A stretch of 64,000 bases of DNA from Acidobacteriota bacterium (lineage in GTDB: Bacteria > Acidobacteriota > Blastocatellia > RBC074): assembly GCA_031423495.1 (NCBI GenBank), contig JANPFP010000125.1, forward strand, positions 19,865-83,864, in the 5' to 3' direction. The notes below the pieces were generated by a model, which had not been told where the DNA came from, did not search any database, and saw nothing but the letters and a program-made list of their open reading frames with translations. Every line of letters starts with the position of its first letter. Position 1 is the first letter of the stretch. Of this stretch, positions 267 through 57,189 are shown one piece after another. The translations under genes and the position numbers were made by a program.

Positions 267-1937
267 ATGAACTTTCTCGAACACATCTTTCGCCACCTAA
301 GCAAAACGCCTCATCGTCCGGTCGTCCGCGAAATCATTGACGGGCAGTTCGTCACGGTGACGTGCGGCGAATTGCTCGCGCAGATCAACGCGGCGCGTAC
401 GTTCATCCGCTTATCCAAGCTGCAATCCGGCGACCGCGTAGGCTTGCTCGCGCCCAATTCGATTCGTTGGGCGGCGATGGATTTGGCCTTGATGGCCGAG
501 GGCGTCGTCGTCGTACCGCTTTACGCGCGGCAAGACCCGAAAGAGTTGGTCGGCATGCTCAGGGATTGCGGTGCGGGCTTGGTCGTATGCGCCGATGAAT
601 CTTTACGTAAAGGCATCGCCGACCATTGGCCTAAAGACAGCGGAGCCTTTCCGCCGCCGCTGAAATTATTCGACGACATCTTTGCTCATACGCCTGACAG
701 CGCGCTCGACGACACGCCCAATGCTCGTAAAGATGAAGACCTCGTGACGATTATTTATACGTCGGGAACTTCGGGCGAACCCAAGGGCGTGATGCTGAAT
801 ACGACGAACCTGAATCACATGGTTCCTTGCACGGGCGCGCGCCTCGACCAATTGATGGAAGGCGCGACCGACAACGTAGCCGATCAGGTCTTTCATTATT
901 TGCCGTTCTGTTTTGCCGGTTCGTGGATTCTGTTGCTCACCGCCTTGTCGCGCCGCAGCCTGTTGTCGCTCTCGATGGATTTGAACAAGCTCGCCGACGA
1001 ACTCAAACTCGCCGCGCCGAACTATTGTTTGAACGTGCCTACGTTGCTCGAACGCATTCGCACGGGTGTTGAGAACCAAATCGCTACGAAACCCGGTGTC
1101 ATTCAATCGATCTATCAAAACGGCAAGGCCGCGTGGTTGCGTCGGCAGGAAGGGCAGGGCGGCGCGTTTGATACGTTGCAATTCAAGCTGGCGGACTGGC
1201 TGATTTTCAGCAACGTCAAAAAGAAAATCGGCGTGCAACTCAAAGCGTTGATTTGCGGCTCGGCTCCGCTGAACAAAGAGACGCAGCTTTTCTTTCAGAT
1301 GCTGGGCATCAAGGCGTTGCAGGTTTACGGATTGACCGAGACGACGGCCATTTGCACAATGGATGACCCGCGCGCTTATGTGCCGGGTCGCGTAGGCCCC
1401 GCCATCCCCGGCATCGAAATGCAACTGGGCGAAGGCGACGAAATCATCATTCGCGGGCCGCATATTTTCGCGGGCTATTGGAATAAACCAGAGGCTACGT
1501 CGGCGGCGTTGCGCGACAGCTGGTTCCATACGGGCGATCAGGGCGCGGTGGATGCGCAAGGCAATTGGGCCATCACCGGACGCCTCAAGAACCTGCTCAT
1601 TCTCAAATCGGGCCACAACGTCGCGCCCGAACCGCTCGAAGAAAAGCTCGCCTTCCACTTGCCCGCCGCGCAACAGTGCGTAGTGTTCGGCAATGATCGC
1701 GGCTTCCTGACGGCGCTCATTACGGGCGAAGTGAGTGCGACACAGGCCGACACCGCCGTCGCCCAACTCAACGCCGACCTGCCGCATTACAAACAGGTAC
1801 GCGCTTATCACCTGAGCAAAGAACCGCTCACGATTGAAAGCGGCTTGCTCACGGCGAACGGCAAACTCAAACGCGACGCCATCGCCAAACATTTCGTGGC
1901 GGAAATCGAAACGATGTATAGCAATACAAAGGCGTAG
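267..1937 (+). CDS. AMP-dependent synthetase/ligase (long-chain-fatty-acid--CoA ligase-like)
   Basis: 556 aa. AMP-binding motif [12 protein letters not shown], later YGLTET and GDxG/TGR regions; typical acyl-CoA synthetase length. Confidence 0.8.
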
Positions 1938-1940
1938 CAG

Positions 1941-2097
1941 TGTCCGTAGCCCGACCGTTAGAGAGGGCTACCGTCACGAGGCGCTTGTTGATGCCGAAGG
2001 GCGCTATGCCGAGATAGCCCTCTCTAACGGTCGGGCTACGGACACAAAAAGGGCGCAATGCCGAGGTAGCCCTCTCTAACGGTCGGGCTACGGACAC
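1941..2097. repeat. Palindromic intergenic repeat, family 1: full copy plus adjacent duplicated half copy
   Basis: GTCCGTAGCCCGACCGTTAGAGAGGGCTAC ... GTAGCCCTCTCTAACGGTCGGGCTACGGAC forms 30-nt inverted arms around a ~45-nt core. The right arm is duplicated again at 2051-2097. Near-identical arms recur at 53304-53410 and 57061-57189. Confidence 0.8.
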
Positions 2098-2195
2098 AAA
2101 ACCGTTCCCGCAAAATTGAAAGGCAGGCCAATTCATCAGCGGGCAATGATGCCAATCGTTCAACGGCTGGTCATTGGAATTCAGGCCGATACATC

Positions 2196-2423
2196 GGCCT
2201 TTCCCGCAGGGCGATTAGGCCAGCCGTTCAACGGCTGGTAAGCCGAGAGATATTTTGGATAGCCCGTTTGAACGGGCTTCCCAAAACTGGCTTCAGCCAA
2301 CGGGTTTCGACGCCCATCGGCTAAAGCCAGACACGAGAAAGACGCTAAAAGCGCCTTAACCGCAAACCGTCGCGCTTTACCAGCCGTCGAACGGCTGGCC
2401 TAATCGCCCTCGCGGGAAAGCCC
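2196..2423. mobile_element. MITE-like element with ~45-bp terminal inverted repeats
   Basis: Left arm GGCCTTTCCCGCAGGGCGATTAGGCCAGCCGTTCAACGGCTGG (2196-2238). Right arm at 2380-2423 is its reverse complement with 2-3 mismatches. An internal hairpin AGCCCGTTTGAACGGGCT is present, and an extra CGTTCAACGGCTGG core copy lies at 2146-2170. No coding capacity. Confidence 0.55.
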
Positions 2424-2666
2424 GATGAACGGGCTGGCAGATGTCACGCAGCGACTGCGTAAAAACGAACCGAAGAAAGGCTGATTCAATATGTTCATTT
2501 TGGCTGGCACATGCATCTTTCTCAGCATCGTGCTGGGCATTATGGGTTTGATGGCGTGGGGCGCGATGACGACGGAACCTCCAACGGATGAGCCAGCGTC
2601 GAGCGAGACACCGATACCACAGACCAATGAAGACTCCGAAAATTAAAACAGTAATACCTCATCACT

Positions 2667-3587
2667 ATGCCAATTCCTGATTATCAAACCTTGATGCTGC
2701 CGCTGCTCAAATATGCTGCTGATGAGCAAGAACACTCTTTGCGCGAAGCCATTGAATCGTTGGCTGATCAATTTCAACTCTCTGATGAGGATAGAAAAGA
2801 ACTACTTCCAAGCGGACAACAAGCTAGGTTTGATAATCGGGTTGGATGGGCGTGCACCTATCTGAAGAAAGCAGGTCTTTTAGAAGGATCAAGACGCGGG
2901 TATTTTAGGGCCACTGAACGAGGGCGTTCGGTATTGGGTAATGACCTTCAACGCATTGACCAAGCATACTTGCGCAAATTTCCTGAGTTTGTTGAATTCC
3001 AAAATCGCAGCAAAAGAAATTCTGACGAGGACGCGGTTTCACCTGAAATTGAGCAAAACGTTGAGATGACTCCAGAGGAATTAATTGAGTCTGCTCACCA
3101 AAGTTTGCGAGAAAATTTAGCTGCCGAGCTTTTGCAAACTATCAAAGGTTGTTCCCCTAATTTTTTTGAGCGCCTCGTCGTTGATTTGCTTTTGAAGATG
3201 GGCTACGGCGGCACTCGGCGCGACGCTGGCAAAGCTATCGGCAAGAGTGGAGATGGTGGAATTGACGGCGTCATCAACGAAGATCGGTTAGGTCTGGACG
3301 CTGTTTATATTCAAGCCAAAAGATGGGAAGGCTCTGTAGGCCGACCAGAAATTCAAAAATTTGTTGGCGCGTTACAAGGCCAACGAGCGCGCAAGGGCAT
3401 TTTTATCACTACATCATGGTTCACACGGGAGGCATTTGATTACGCTGGCAGAATTGAAAGTAAGGTCATTCTTATTGACGGCGAACAGCTTGCTCAATAC
3501 ATGATTGATTTCAATGTTGGTGTTTCTATCATCGCCAATTACGAACTCAAGAAAGTTGATCAGGATTACTTTACTGATGAACTATAA
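2667..3587 (+). CDS. mrr: Mrr-family methylation-dependent (type IV) restriction endonuclease
   Basis: 306 aa. Mrr_N-like winged-helix N-terminus. Mrr_cat core GKSGDGGIDGVINEDRLGLDAVYIQAKRW... is the Mrr-type PD-(D/E)xK variant (D..QAK). The gene is clearly AT-richer than its flanks. Confidence 0.75.
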   Translation: MPIPDYQTLMLPLLKYAADEQEHSLREAIESLADQFQLSDEDRKELLPSGQQARFDNRVGWACTYLKKAGLLEGSRRGYFRATERGRSVLGNDLQRIDQAYLRKFPEFVEFQNRSKRNSDEDAVSPEIEQNVEMTPEELIESAHQSLRENLAAELLQTIKGCSPNFFERLVVDLLLKMGYGGTRRDAGKAIGKSGDGGIDGVINEDRLGLDAVYIQAKRWEGSVGRPEIQKFVGALQGQRARKGIFITTSWFTREAFDYAGRIESKVILIDGEQLAQYMIDFNVGVSIIANYELKKVDQDYFTDEL

Positions 3588-3632
3588 CGCATTCCTGATA
3601 GGGAATGGGCTTATCAAGAAAGCATCGCAAGC

Positions 3633-53303: not shown

Positions 53304-53410
53304 GTGTCCGTAGCCCGACCGTAAGCGAGGGCTGCCTTGACGATGCGCTTGATGATGCCGAAGGGCGCAACGCCAAGGCAGCCCTCGCTTACGGTCGGGC
53401 TACGGACACG
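53304..53410. repeat. Palindromic intergenic repeat, family 1 (copy 3)
   Basis: GTGTCCGTAGCCCGACCGTAAGCGAGGGCTGCC...GGCAGCCCTCGCTTACGGTCGGGCTACGGACAC. The central GATGCCGAAGGGCGC core is shared with the 1941-2045 copy. Confidence 0.8.
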
Positions 53411-57060: not shown

Positions 57061-57189
57061 GCGAAGCGTGTCCGTAGCCCGACCGTTAGCGAGGGCTACC
57101 TTGAGGATGTTTTGATTGGGTTCGGTGACGCCGTTGCGTCCAGTGCCGAGGTAGCCCTCTCTTACGGTCGGGCTACGGACACGCTTCGC
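57061..57189. repeat. Palindromic intergenic repeat, family 1 (copy 4, extended arms)
   Basis: GCGAAGCGTGTCCGTAGCCCGACCGTTAGCGAGGGCTACC...GGTAGCCCTCTCTTACGGTCGGGCTACGGACACGCTTCGC. Confidence 0.8.

What the first reader, a model, noticed from the sequence alone, without database searches (positions are those of the whole stretch)
2196..2423. 228-bp MITE-like element with ~45-bp TIRs next to the low-GC mrr gene
GGCCTTTCCCGCAGGGCGATTAGGCCAGCCGTTCAACGGCTGG is repeated in inverse orientation 140 bp away with 2-3 mismatches. An extra copy of the palindromic core CGTTCAACGGCTGG lies just upstream at 2146-2170. The ~700-bp non-coding stretch at 1938-2666 thus contains two different repeat families in tandem. 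It directly precedes an AT-rich Mrr type IV restriction gene, which suggests the repeats mark a recombination or insertion hotspot used for gene acquisition.
Basis: seen in the sequence. Interest (0 to 1): 0.5.

Follow-up and report, generated by a model that had tools for sequence, protein, structure and literature searches.

The report
Gene-less copy of a hairpin-ended transposon
The 255-bp palindrome is real, and it is a gene-less copy of a small mobile element whose full version carries an IS200-like single-strand DNA transposase between the same two hairpin-rich arms; it is an ordinary kind of bacterial repeat from a family I could not find described, and nothing ties it to the arrival of the neighbouring mrr gene.

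Summary
The inverted repeat is confirmed. The element is larger than reported, at window 2182-2436 (255 bp), and the whole stretch is an imperfect palindrome.

It is a mirror-symmetric string of small hairpins: H1-H2-(TAG)-H3-H4, a centre, then H4'-H3'-H2'-H1'. Across 127 arms from many genomes the stems change by compensatory substitutions, so local hairpins are conserved rather than the TIR sequence.

Full-length, half-size and single-arm relatives occur in several copies per genome in Acidobacteriota (Blastocatellia-like) and Phycisphaerae MAGs. None has a consistent target-site duplication.

The key result came from 80 metagenomic loci picked only for encoding one clade of Y1 (HUH) IS200-like transposase. 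In 70 of them the gene lies between two arms of this element, and no locus lacks an arm. The window copy is therefore the two arms joined without the gene, a non-autonomous REPIN/PATE-like derivative, probably moved in trans as single-stranded DNA.

"MITE-like" is right in spirit but wrong in mechanism: there is no DDE transposase and no TSD.

The mrr link is not supported. A conserved small ORF separates the element from mrr, and a close relative lacks all the repeats yet still has different genes in the mrr slot.

Verdict: a new member of a known kind, of moderate interest.

The parts
2182..2436 (.). Full non-autonomous element (255 bp): two inverted arms of about 117 nt plus a 20-nt centre; an imperfect palindrome over its whole length
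   Evidence: Self-reverse-complement match. nhmmer hit 2179-2436 on both strands. The conservation boundary lies at the H1 foot. Fold z = -14.5.
2183..2200 (+). H1, outermost hairpin of the left arm (AGGCCGAT-ACA-TCGGCCT)
   Evidence: All 7 pairs show double-sided compensatory changes across 127 arms; 93.8% of cells are paired.
2203..2211 (+). H2, short hairpin CCC-GCA-GGG
   Evidence: Largely invariant C-G pairs, 91-92% paired; the stem is longer in some subfamilies.
2216..2218 (+). Unpaired TAG tag immediately 5' of H3 (an NTAG tetranucleotide); candidate guide or recognition motif
   Evidence: T 93%, A 98%, G 99% across 127 arms. The preceding base is free: CTAG 37, TTAG 35, ATAG 31, GTAG 11. 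The role is inferred by analogy with the GTAG of REPs.
2220..2238 (+).
   Evidence: 7 of 8 pairs show double-sided changes (for example CCAGCGC/GCGCTGG, CCCGCCG/CGGCGGG); 97.9% paired.
2261..2278 (+). H4, inner hairpin of the left arm (AGCCCGTT-TG-AACGGGCT)
   Evidence: 5 of 8 pairs show double-sided changes; 97.8% paired.
2289..2328 (.). Central joint: GGCTTCAGCC, a 20-nt centre, then GGCTAAAGCC. In gene-carrying relatives the Y1 transposase ORF sits between these two 10-mers.
   Evidence: Autonomous units read ...GGCTTTAGCC(N)ATG...stop...GGCTAAAGCC.... The centre of the L009/L019 copies keeps ATGCCTCG, the first 8 nt of the ORF.
2340..2357 (-). H4', inner hairpin of the right arm (has a G.T wobble when read in arm orientation)
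   Evidence: Aligned as window:2314-2446:- in A2. This wobble position is enriched in gene-downstream arms, 15/45 against 2/33.
2380..2402 (-). H3' (2380-2398) plus the complement of the TAG tag (CTA, 2400-2402)
2407..2435 (-). H2' (2407-2416) and H1' (2419-2435) of the right arm
   Evidence: H1 and H1' in the window differ by changes that keep each local hairpin but break H1:H1' long-range pairing (read directly from the sequence).
2124..2174 (+). Degenerate single arm (decayed H1-H2-H3) just upstream, in the same orientation as the left arm
   Evidence: nhmmer hit to HMM positions 5-65, E = 8e-4. Direct repeat D3, 84%. Absent from the orthologous locus L028.

Best explanation
Window 2182-2436 is a non-autonomous member of a family of palindromic extragenic elements that belong to one clade of IS200-related Y1 (HUH) single-strand DNA transposases.

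The complete unit is about 680-700 bp. It consists of a left arm of about 120 nt with four hairpins (H1, H2, TAG-H3, H4), a Y1 gene of 142-150 codons, and the same arm inverted. The window copy is the two arms joined with the gene missing. In function it is a REPIN/PATE-like element.

Proposed mechanism (inferred, not shown): when the DNA is single-stranded, for example on the lagging-strand template, the arms fold into their local hairpins. A Y1 transposase encoded elsewhere in the genome binds a hairpin, most plausibly H3 with its invariant unpaired TAG. It then cuts and rejoins single strands through its HUH motif and catalytic tyrosine, moving or copying the element without a target-site duplication.

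Copies accumulate in intergenic spaces, here in a cluster with a second, unrelated REP-like family directly after the stop codon of an acyl-CoA ligase gene.
For: Shown:
(a) A dispersed family. A 21-mer from H3 recovered 29 genome loci. About 20 of them, in Acidobacteriota and Phycisphaerae MAGs, hold full (230-260 bp), half-size or single-arm homologues. There are at least 7 copies on 6 contigs of one MAG.
(b) Link to the transposase, starting from DNA. In 3 of those loci a Pfam Y1_Tnp / NCBIfam transpos_IS200 gene lies between or next to arms: L009, L008 and L014.
(c) The reverse test, starting from protein. Of 80 metagenomic loci chosen only by Y1 protein similarity, 70 have arms on both sides of the gene, 7 upstream only, 3 downstream only, and none has no arm. 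The upstream arm matches HMM positions ~3-125 and the downstream arm ~130-252, which is the order found in the window element.
(d) The HUH histidines and the tyrosine are invariant in the aligned Y1 proteins. The closest solved structures are IS608 and ISDra2 TnpA.
(e) Local hairpins are under structural constraint. 96.1% of cells are paired against 80.6% in shuffles; 425 cells show double-sided changes against 120; slid controls give 23-51%.
(f) No consistent TSD, as expected for Y1 transposition (established knowledge of IS200/IS605; PMC6006769).
(g) Presence/absence at orthologous sites. The element is present in the window and in L028, and the whole block is absent in L033. The Y1 gene plus a second element is present in L009 and absent in L019.
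(h) The centre of the L009/L019 copies retains the first 8 nt of the Y1 ORF.
Against: No Y1 gene lies in the 64-kb window, and I could not find the cognate gene of the window's own organism. Trans-mobilisation in this genome is therefore inferred.

No transposition event or empty site specific to this single element was captured. The empty site in L033 lacks a 534-bp block made of several repeats.

Copy number looks modest (roughly ten per MAG), far below classical REPs.

Which hairpin the enzyme recognises, which strand, and where it cuts are all unknown.

The orthologous copies in the window and L028 are only 80% identical, so this copy may be old and inactive.
Confidence: 0.8

Rival explanations
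1. It is a classical MITE: a deletion derivative of a DDE-transposase IS, recognised through its ~45-bp terminal inverted repeats and inserted with a target-site duplication.
For: Long inverted arms, small size, multiple copies at unrelated loci, and presence/absence between relatives.
Against: There is no consistent flanking direct repeat in 14 full copies examined by eye; a formal script covered 9 of them before stopping. The one apparent 6-bp repeat (L004, ACTAGC) is an outward extension of the inverted repeat in one subfamily, and it contains the palindrome CTAG.

The gene found between the arms is a Y1/HUH transposase in 80 of 80 loci tested from the protein side, not a DDE enzyme.

The stems covary, so structure is what is kept, not TIR sequence.
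Confidence: 0.04
2. It is the remnant of an ordinary, selfish IS200-family insertion sequence: a PATE-type internal deletion, now immobile junk. It would not be part of a domesticated REP/RAYT-like system with many trans-mobilised copies.
For: NCBIfam places the protein in the IS200 equivalog model (78.5 bits against a cutoff of 55). The nearest structures are IS608/ISDra2 TnpA. The gene-carrying unit is IS200-sized (about 700 bp). The centre of some copies keeps the start of the ORF. Copy number is modest.
Against: IS200/IS605 elements lack long inverted arms, whereas here the arms are inverted and carry four hairpins each.

The protein carries the WQ and Y---Q--HH signature that PMC6006769 assigns to subclass 1.2, described there as low-copy and lacking IS properties.

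Gene-less copies outnumber gene-carrying ones in each MAG sampled.

Nearly all Y1 gene pairs with >=90% identity are the same locus seen in another sample, not new insertions. Metagenome assembly would hide multi-copy IS, so this last point is weak.

This rival differs from the best explanation mainly in whether gene-less copies are still mobilised.
Confidence: 0.12
3. It is a structured non-coding RNA or a cis-acting transcript element (a terminator or mRNA-stabilising hairpin) that acts on the ligase / small-ORF transcript.
For: A very stable fold and compensatory changes in the stems. It sits immediately after a stop codon and between co-directional genes. REPs in other bacteria are known to affect mRNA stability and termination (background in PMC6006769 and PMC3733652).
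Against: There is no Rfam match at gathering or relaxed thresholds, no terminator-like T-run and no promoter-like site.

The same arms occur in inverted orientation on both sides of a transposase gene in 70 of 80 loci, which an RNA-gene model does not explain.

The closest relative, L033, has no element at this site, so it is dispensable for the locus. A secondary effect on the transcript is not excluded.
Confidence: 0.04

Closest known systems
REP/REPIN-RAYT systems (REPtrons; Nunvar 2010, Bertels & Rainey 2011 PMC3116915, Ton-Hoang 2012 PMC3333891)
   Same: Both are extragenic palindromic repeats that fold as hairpins. In both, two inverted units form a larger hairpin. The same units flank a Y1/HUH transposase gene in inverted orientation. 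Gene-less copies are scattered in intergenic DNA, often in clusters. There is no TSD. A conserved unpaired tag sits 5' of a hairpin foot: NTAG here, GTAG in many REPs.
   Different: Each arm is about 120 nt and holds four distinct hairpins, where a REP is a single hairpin of 20-40 nt. The full element is 255 bp, against about 70-110 bp for a REPIN. The protein lacks the class-2 RAYT tyrosine motif (Y..[LN]NP) and instead has YI(R/K)NQKEHH. E. coli TnpA-REP is not among the PDB sequence hits. Copy number appears to be about ten per genome rather than hundreds. The hosts are Acidobacteriota and Phycisphaerae.
TIRtrons / TIRYTs (Di Nocera et al. 2013, PMC3733652)
   Same: Both are Y1 transposase genes flanked by long terminal inverted repeats that are not classical GTAG REPs. 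Some of those TIRs contain self-complementary tracts. The TIR families are moderately abundant and occur as dimers or clusters. An Acidobacteria-specific group was noted.
   Different: The GGGGWSAS motif typical of most TIRtron TIRs is absent (2 of 127 arms). Most TIRYTs are subclass 2.1 proteins of about 238 aa with an HTH tail (PMC6006769). The protein here is 142-150 aa with the subclass 1.2 signature.
IS200/IS605 insertion sequences and their gene-less PATE derivatives
   Same: The transposase is a Y1/HUH enzyme that passes the NCBIfam IS200 equivalog cutoff. The nearest structures are IS608/ISDra2 TnpA. The unit is about 700 bp with a single ORF. The ends are hairpin-rich. There is no TSD. 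Gene-less derivatives keep both ends.
   Different: IS200/IS605 ends are not inverted repeats and carry one subterminal hairpin each. Here the ends are long inverted arms with four hairpins each. The protein motifs are WQ and YIxNQKEHH, where IS200 (subclass 1.1) has W[TS] and Y[IV]ENQ. No tnpB partner was seen.
TnpA-Y1 subclass 1.2 (Quentin et al. 2018, PMC6006769)
   Same: The key motifs match (DH[IV]H, WQ, YIKNQKEHH), the median length matches (148 aa), and the genes appear to be low-copy and diverged.
   Different: The paper reports this subclass mostly in Cyanobacteria and Bacteroidetes, with no REP sequences nearby ('REP: no') and generally without terminal secondary structures. In the Acidobacteriota/Planctomycetota clade studied here, 70 of 80 genes sit between two conserved multi-hairpin arms, and gene-less arm pairs are dispersed.

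Membership tests
MITE (DDE-transposon derivative) | Terminal inverted repeats | tested here: met
   53-nt arms, 83% complementary; the whole element is palindromic.
MITE (DDE-transposon derivative) | Target-site duplication of fixed length flanking each copy | tested here: not met
   No consistent direct repeat at the borders of 14 full copies by eye; a script covered 9 before stopping. The L004 6-mer is an extension of the inverted repeat.
MITE (DDE-transposon derivative) | A parent IS with the same termini that encodes a DDE transposase | tested here: not met
   The gene found between the arms is Pfam Y1_Tnp (HUH) in every case.
REP/REPIN-RAYT (REPtron) | Extragenic palindromic units conserved as hairpins | tested here: met
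   Intergenic positions. Covariation supports H1, H3 and H4.
REP/REPIN-RAYT (REPtron) | Units flank a Y1 transposase gene in inverted orientation | tested here: met
   70 of 80 protein-selected loci have arms on both sides, and none lacks arms.
REP/REPIN-RAYT (REPtron) | Conserved unpaired GTAG (or CGTC) tetranucleotide at the hairpin foot | tested here: inconclusive
   An NTAG tag precedes H3, with TAG 93-99% conserved, but G at the first position in only 11 of 127 arms.
REP/REPIN-RAYT (REPtron) | RAYT (class 2) protein signature, tyrosine motif Y..[LN]NP | tested here: not met
   The consensus is YI(R/K/Q)NQKEHH, compared with Table 1 of PMC6006769.
REP/REPIN-RAYT (REPtron) | A single-copy, vertically inherited transposase gene with tens to hundreds of gene-less repeats per genome | tested here: inconclusive
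   There is one Y1 locus among 6 element-bearing contigs of MAG JAYSVR and among 3 of JAFDVL. Identical Y1 genes share flanks. No complete genome was available for counting.
IS200/IS605 family | Y1 transposase with an HUH motif and a catalytic tyrosine | tested here: met
   Pfam PF01797 E = 2e-23. NCBIfam NF033573, 78.5 bits against a cutoff of 55. H57, H59 and Y117 are invariant.
IS200/IS605 family | Ends are not inverted repeats; one subterminal hairpin at each end | tested here: not met
   The ends are inverted arms of about 120 nt with four hairpins each.
IS200/IS605 family | Insertion without a TSD | tested here: met
IS200/IS605 family | Subclass 1.1 motifs W[TS] and Y[IV]ENQ; several near-identical gene copies per genome | tested here: not met
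   The motifs are WQ and YIxNQKEHH. No pair of near-identical genes with unrelated flanks was found, apart from one ambiguous pair. The copy-number part of this test is weak in metagenomes.
TnpA-Y1 subclass 1.2 (PMC6006769) | DH[IV]H, WQ and Y---Q--HH motifs; about 148 aa | tested here: met
   Consensus of 16 proteins compared by eye with the published table. The authors' HMM was not available.
TIRtron/TIRYT (PMC3733652) | Y1 gene flanked by long TIRs; TIR family repeated in the genome | tested here: met
TIRtron/TIRYT (PMC3733652) | GGGGWSAS motif in the TIRs (majority type) | tested here: not met
   Present in 2 of 127 arms.

The most novel reading that the evidence does not exclude
These arms are the so-far-missing DNA partner of the 'subclass 1.2' Y1 proteins. 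That subclass comprises IS200 relatives reported to have no REP sequences and no IS behaviour. On this reading, the family is a compound four-hairpin REPtron shared by Acidobacteriota and Planctomycetota. It would represent an intermediate stage between a selfish IS200-type element and a domesticated REP/RAYT system, with H3 plus its NTAG tag as the ancestral REP-like recognition unit.
Probability: 0.35. Interest if true: 0.55.

Novelty: new member of a known kind. Interest (0 to 1): 0.4.

Why it matters
It replaces a vague 'MITE next to a restriction gene' with a concrete and testable system: a defined 255-bp element, a defined partner enzyme, a set of covariation-supported hairpins, and an invariant TAG tag.

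Its protein belongs to a subclass for which no associated repeats had been reported.

For genome annotation, it explains why short-read assemblies of these Acidobacteriota break at such sites. It also warns against reading nearby cargo genes such as mrr as having been delivered by the repeats.

Tried and rejected
- Rfam, at gathering threshold on the whole window and at relaxed threshold on 1900-2700: only noise.
- Promoter and terminator scan of 1800-2800: nothing in the element.
- Search for a Y1 homologue in the window, by tblastn and by an HMM of the Y1 alignment against all ORFs of at least 70 aa: none.
- Attempt to find the Y1 gene of the window's own organism through Logan contigs of close homologues (P0123, P0128): these came from other samples.
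- TSD search: negative (the script stopped on an error after 9 copies, and the rest were judged by eye).
- Integron attC site: considered because the element is a folded imperfect palindrome next to a cassette-like gene. Rejected because it is 255 bp long, flanks a Y1 gene rather than ending cassettes, and no second copy follows mrr. No formal attC model was run.
- Long-range stem as the selected structure: rejected. H1 and H1' in the window differ by changes that keep each local hairpin but break H1:H1' pairing.
- Hits in Sphingomonadaceae (L013, L029) and several other phyla from the 21-mer scan: these are isolated H3-like palindromes without the tag or the other hairpins, and I treated them as chance or unrelated.
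- The 12-nt imperfect direct repeat around the whole repeat block: noted but not resolved.
- One literature query failed on syntax.

Full report
**1. The observation**

Its arms are 2196-2248 and 2370-2422: 53 nt, 83% complementary, 121 nt apart. The palindromic core CCAGCCGTTCAACGGCTGG occurs three times, at 2152-2170, 2220-2238 and 2380-2398, against none expected in shuffles.

The symmetry reaches further than reported. Window 2182-2436 matches its own reverse complement at 73% over 258 nt. As a single strand it folds at -160.9 kcal/mol with z = -14.5; the DNA-parameter fold gives the same picture. The window holds one full copy plus a degenerate single arm at 2124-2174.

The upstream repeats at 1940-2097 are a separate family. 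It also occurs at 53304-53409 and 57068-57182.

**2. Anatomy**

I aligned the window copy with relatives. The element is a mirror-symmetric chain of small hairpins:
- H1, 2183-2200
- H2, 2203-2211
- an unpaired TAG, 2216-2218
- H3, 2220-2238
- a variable spacer
- H4, 2261-2278
- GGCTTCAGCC, a 20-nt centre, GGCTAAAGCC (2289-2328)
- then H4', H3', H2' and H1' in inverse order, up to 2435.

In 127 arms from many genomes, conservation begins 1 nt outside the H1 foot. The element is therefore 2182-2436, 255 bp.

The stems of H1, H3 and H4 vary by compensatory changes:
- 96.1% of cells form pairs, against 80.6% after shuffling.
- 425 cells have changes on both sides, against 120 expected.
- Sliding the 3' partners by 1-3 columns drops pairing to 23-51%.

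In the window itself, H1 and H1' differ in a way that keeps each local hairpin but spoils H1:H1' pairing. So local hairpins are what is maintained, not one long stem.

The most conserved unpaired bases are the TAG just 5' of H3 (93-99%). The base before it is free.

**3. A dispersed family**

I scanned one genome per species with a 21-mer from H3. This returned 29 loci. BLAST and an HMM built from the copies showed that about 20 of them hold homologues, all in Acidobacteriota (Blastocatellia- and Pyrinomonadaceae-type MAGs) or Phycisphaerae. The homologues are full (230-260 bp), half-size (120-200 bp) or single-arm (about 60 nt), and several MAGs carry more than one copy.

None of the full copies has a consistent flanking direct repeat. 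The one apparent 6-bp duplication is an outward extension of the inverted repeat in one subfamily.

**4. The partner gene**

In L009, two full copies bracket a 150-178-codon ORF. It is Pfam Y1_Tnp (E = 2e-23) and passes the NCBIfam IS200 equivalog cutoff. Homologues of this ORF lie between two half-elements in L008 and next to a copy in L014.

For the reverse test I aligned 16 of these proteins. The HUH histidines and the tyrosine are invariant. I then used the alignment to fetch loci from metagenomes by protein similarity alone. Of the 80 loci kept:
- 70 have arms of the element on both sides of the gene;
- 7 have an arm upstream only and 3 downstream only, mostly at contig ends;
- none has no arm.

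The upstream arm corresponds to the left half of the window element and the downstream arm to the right half. The gene sits between the GGCTTTAGCC and GGCTAAAGCC motifs. The window element is therefore the two arms of a roughly 700-bp gene-carrying unit, joined without the gene. In one subfamily the joint still carries ATGCCTCG, the first 8 nt of the ORF.

**5. Which kind of Y1 system**

The protein is nearest in sequence to the IS608 and ISDra2 transposases. It does not hit E. coli TnpA-REP at E <= 0.01. Its motifs (DHVH, WQ, YI[R/K/Q]NQKEHH) and its length match the signature that Quentin et al. give for their subclass 1.2. They describe that subclass as IS200-related but low-copy, lacking IS properties, with 'REP: no', and found mostly in Cyanobacteria and Bacteroidetes (PMC6006769).

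The long inverted arms resemble the 'TIRtrons' of Di Nocera et al. (PMC3733652), but their GGGGWSAS motif is absent here.

Among 84 Y1 loci, nearly all gene pairs with at least 90% identity share their flanks. They are the same locus seen in another sample, not fresh insertions. This test is weak, because metagenome assemblies collapse repeats.

Within each MAG sampled, gene-less copies outnumber gene-carrying ones. I found no description of this family in the searchable literature.

**6. The locus and the mrr hypothesis**

Three related loci were compared with the window:
- L028, from the sister MAG, is the orthologous locus (ligase 89.6% nucleotide identity). It carries the first repeat family and the element (80% identity), but not the single arm.
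- L033 is closer still (ligase 94% nt, 95% aa). Its ligase stop codon is followed after 6 nt by the start of a small ORF homologous to window 2491-2646. The whole 534-bp repeat block (1939-2472) is absent.
- L034 (76% aa) has a different REP-like family in that gap.

In all three relatives, as far as the sequence reaches, the gene order is ligase - small ORF - variable gene(s) - enoyl-CoA hydratase - KAS III. The variable slot holds Mrr in the window (GC 0.45; Pfam Mrr_N + Mrr_cat), two small ORFs in L033 and a 423-aa ORF in L034. No repeat flanks mrr.

So the slot varies with or without the repeats, and a conserved gene start separates it from the element. The data do not support a role for the element in acquiring mrr.

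**7. Mechanism and confidence**

Shown:
- the family exists and its hairpins are structurally conserved;
- it is tightly associated with an intact-looking Y1/HUH transposase;
- there is no TSD;
- it is present or absent at orthologous sites.

Inferred from what is established for IS200/IS605 and TnpA-REP:
- the arms fold when the DNA is single-stranded;
- the Y1 enzyme recognises a hairpin (my candidate is H3 with its TAG tag) and cuts and rejoins single strands;
- gene-less copies are moved in trans.

Unknown: the cognate gene in this organism, the cleavage sites, and whether this 80%-diverged copy is still active.

I put 0.8 on 'non-autonomous derivative of this Y1 unit'. The remainder is split between a dead IS200-type remnant, a classical MITE and an RNA element.

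**8. Verdict**

The feature is real and is correctly flagged as mobile-element-like, but the mechanism was misassigned and the link to mrr is not supported. It is a new member of a known kind (Y1-transposase-associated palindromic repeats), with an unusual compound arm and a protein subclass not previously tied to repeats. Interest is moderate.

Noticed in passing
window 1940-2097; 53304-53409; 57068-57182: This is a second, unrelated repeat family. It consists of inverted doublets of a 31-33-nt unit, GTGTCCGTAGCCCGACCGTTAGAGAGGGCTA (GTAG followed by a GC-rich stem), with a 44-nt spacer, and all copies are intergenic. At the first site a 52-nt tandem duplication (1997-2100) adds a third arm. 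It looks like a classical GTAG-tagged REPIN. Short-read contigs of the same organism break exactly there (L030 ends and L031 starts inside it). No RAYT gene for it lies in the window.
   Followed up: partly
window 2491-2646: This is a small ORF of 51 aa with a hydrophobic N-terminal helix (MFILAGTCIFLSIVLGIMGLMAWGAM...). In L033 its start codon lies 6 nt after the ligase stop.
   Followed up: partly
window ~2590-3631 (mrr 2667-3587): A variable gene slot lies between the small ORF and the enoyl-CoA hydratase gene. It holds low-GC Mrr here, ORFs of 124 and 149 aa in L033, and a 423-aa ORF without a Pfam hit in L034. No flanking repeats or integrase were seen, and how the slot turns over is unexplained.
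   Followed up: partly
window 1927-1938 and 2473-2484; L034 ~2311-2324 and ~2486-2496: An imperfect 12-nt direct repeat (ACAAAGGCGTAG / AAGAAAGGCTGA) brackets the whole 534-bp repeat block, and the empty site in L033 has a single copy (AAGAAAGGCTGA, the ligase 3' end). L034 shows an analogous pair (TCAAAGGCTAA / TGAAAGGTTAA) around a different repeat family. It could be a duplication made on insertion, the substrate of the deletion in L033, or the Shine-Dalgarno region of the small ORF. This was not resolved.
   Followed up: no
L034 2325-2488: A third, different REP-like family (palindromes built on GCTCCGTTAGGAGCGA) occupies the same ligase / small-ORF gap in a more distant relative. This suggests the gap repeatedly collects palindromic repeats.
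   Followed up: no
L009 4234-5365 versus L019 1915-2165: This is an orthologous locus in two Acidobacteriota species, lying between a Ser/Thr kinase-FGE gene and a UvrD-like helicase gene. One species has element - Y1 gene - element, and the other has a single element and no Y1 gene. This fits loss of the gene by recombination between the flanking copies, or gain of the gene within a resident element.
   Followed up: partly
alignment A2, H4 pair columns 159/171: A G.T wobble at one position of H4 (AGCGCG...CGTGCT) is frequent in arms downstream of the Y1 gene (15/45) and rare upstream (2/33). It may mark which end or which strand is which.
   Followed up: partly
L030 4148-5998 (upstream of the ligase gene in the window's own organism): A run of small toxin-antitoxin-type genes (two BrnT toxin genes and one PemK toxin gene, each with a small partner ORF) lies just upstream of the ligase gene, partly beyond the left end of the window.
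   Followed up: no
L115-L117: A Y1 gene of this clade sits directly downstream of uvrB in L115, and the same arrangement recurs on contigs from two further samples (L116, L117). All contigs end about 200 nt after the gene, which is where a repeated arm would break an assembly.
   Followed up: no
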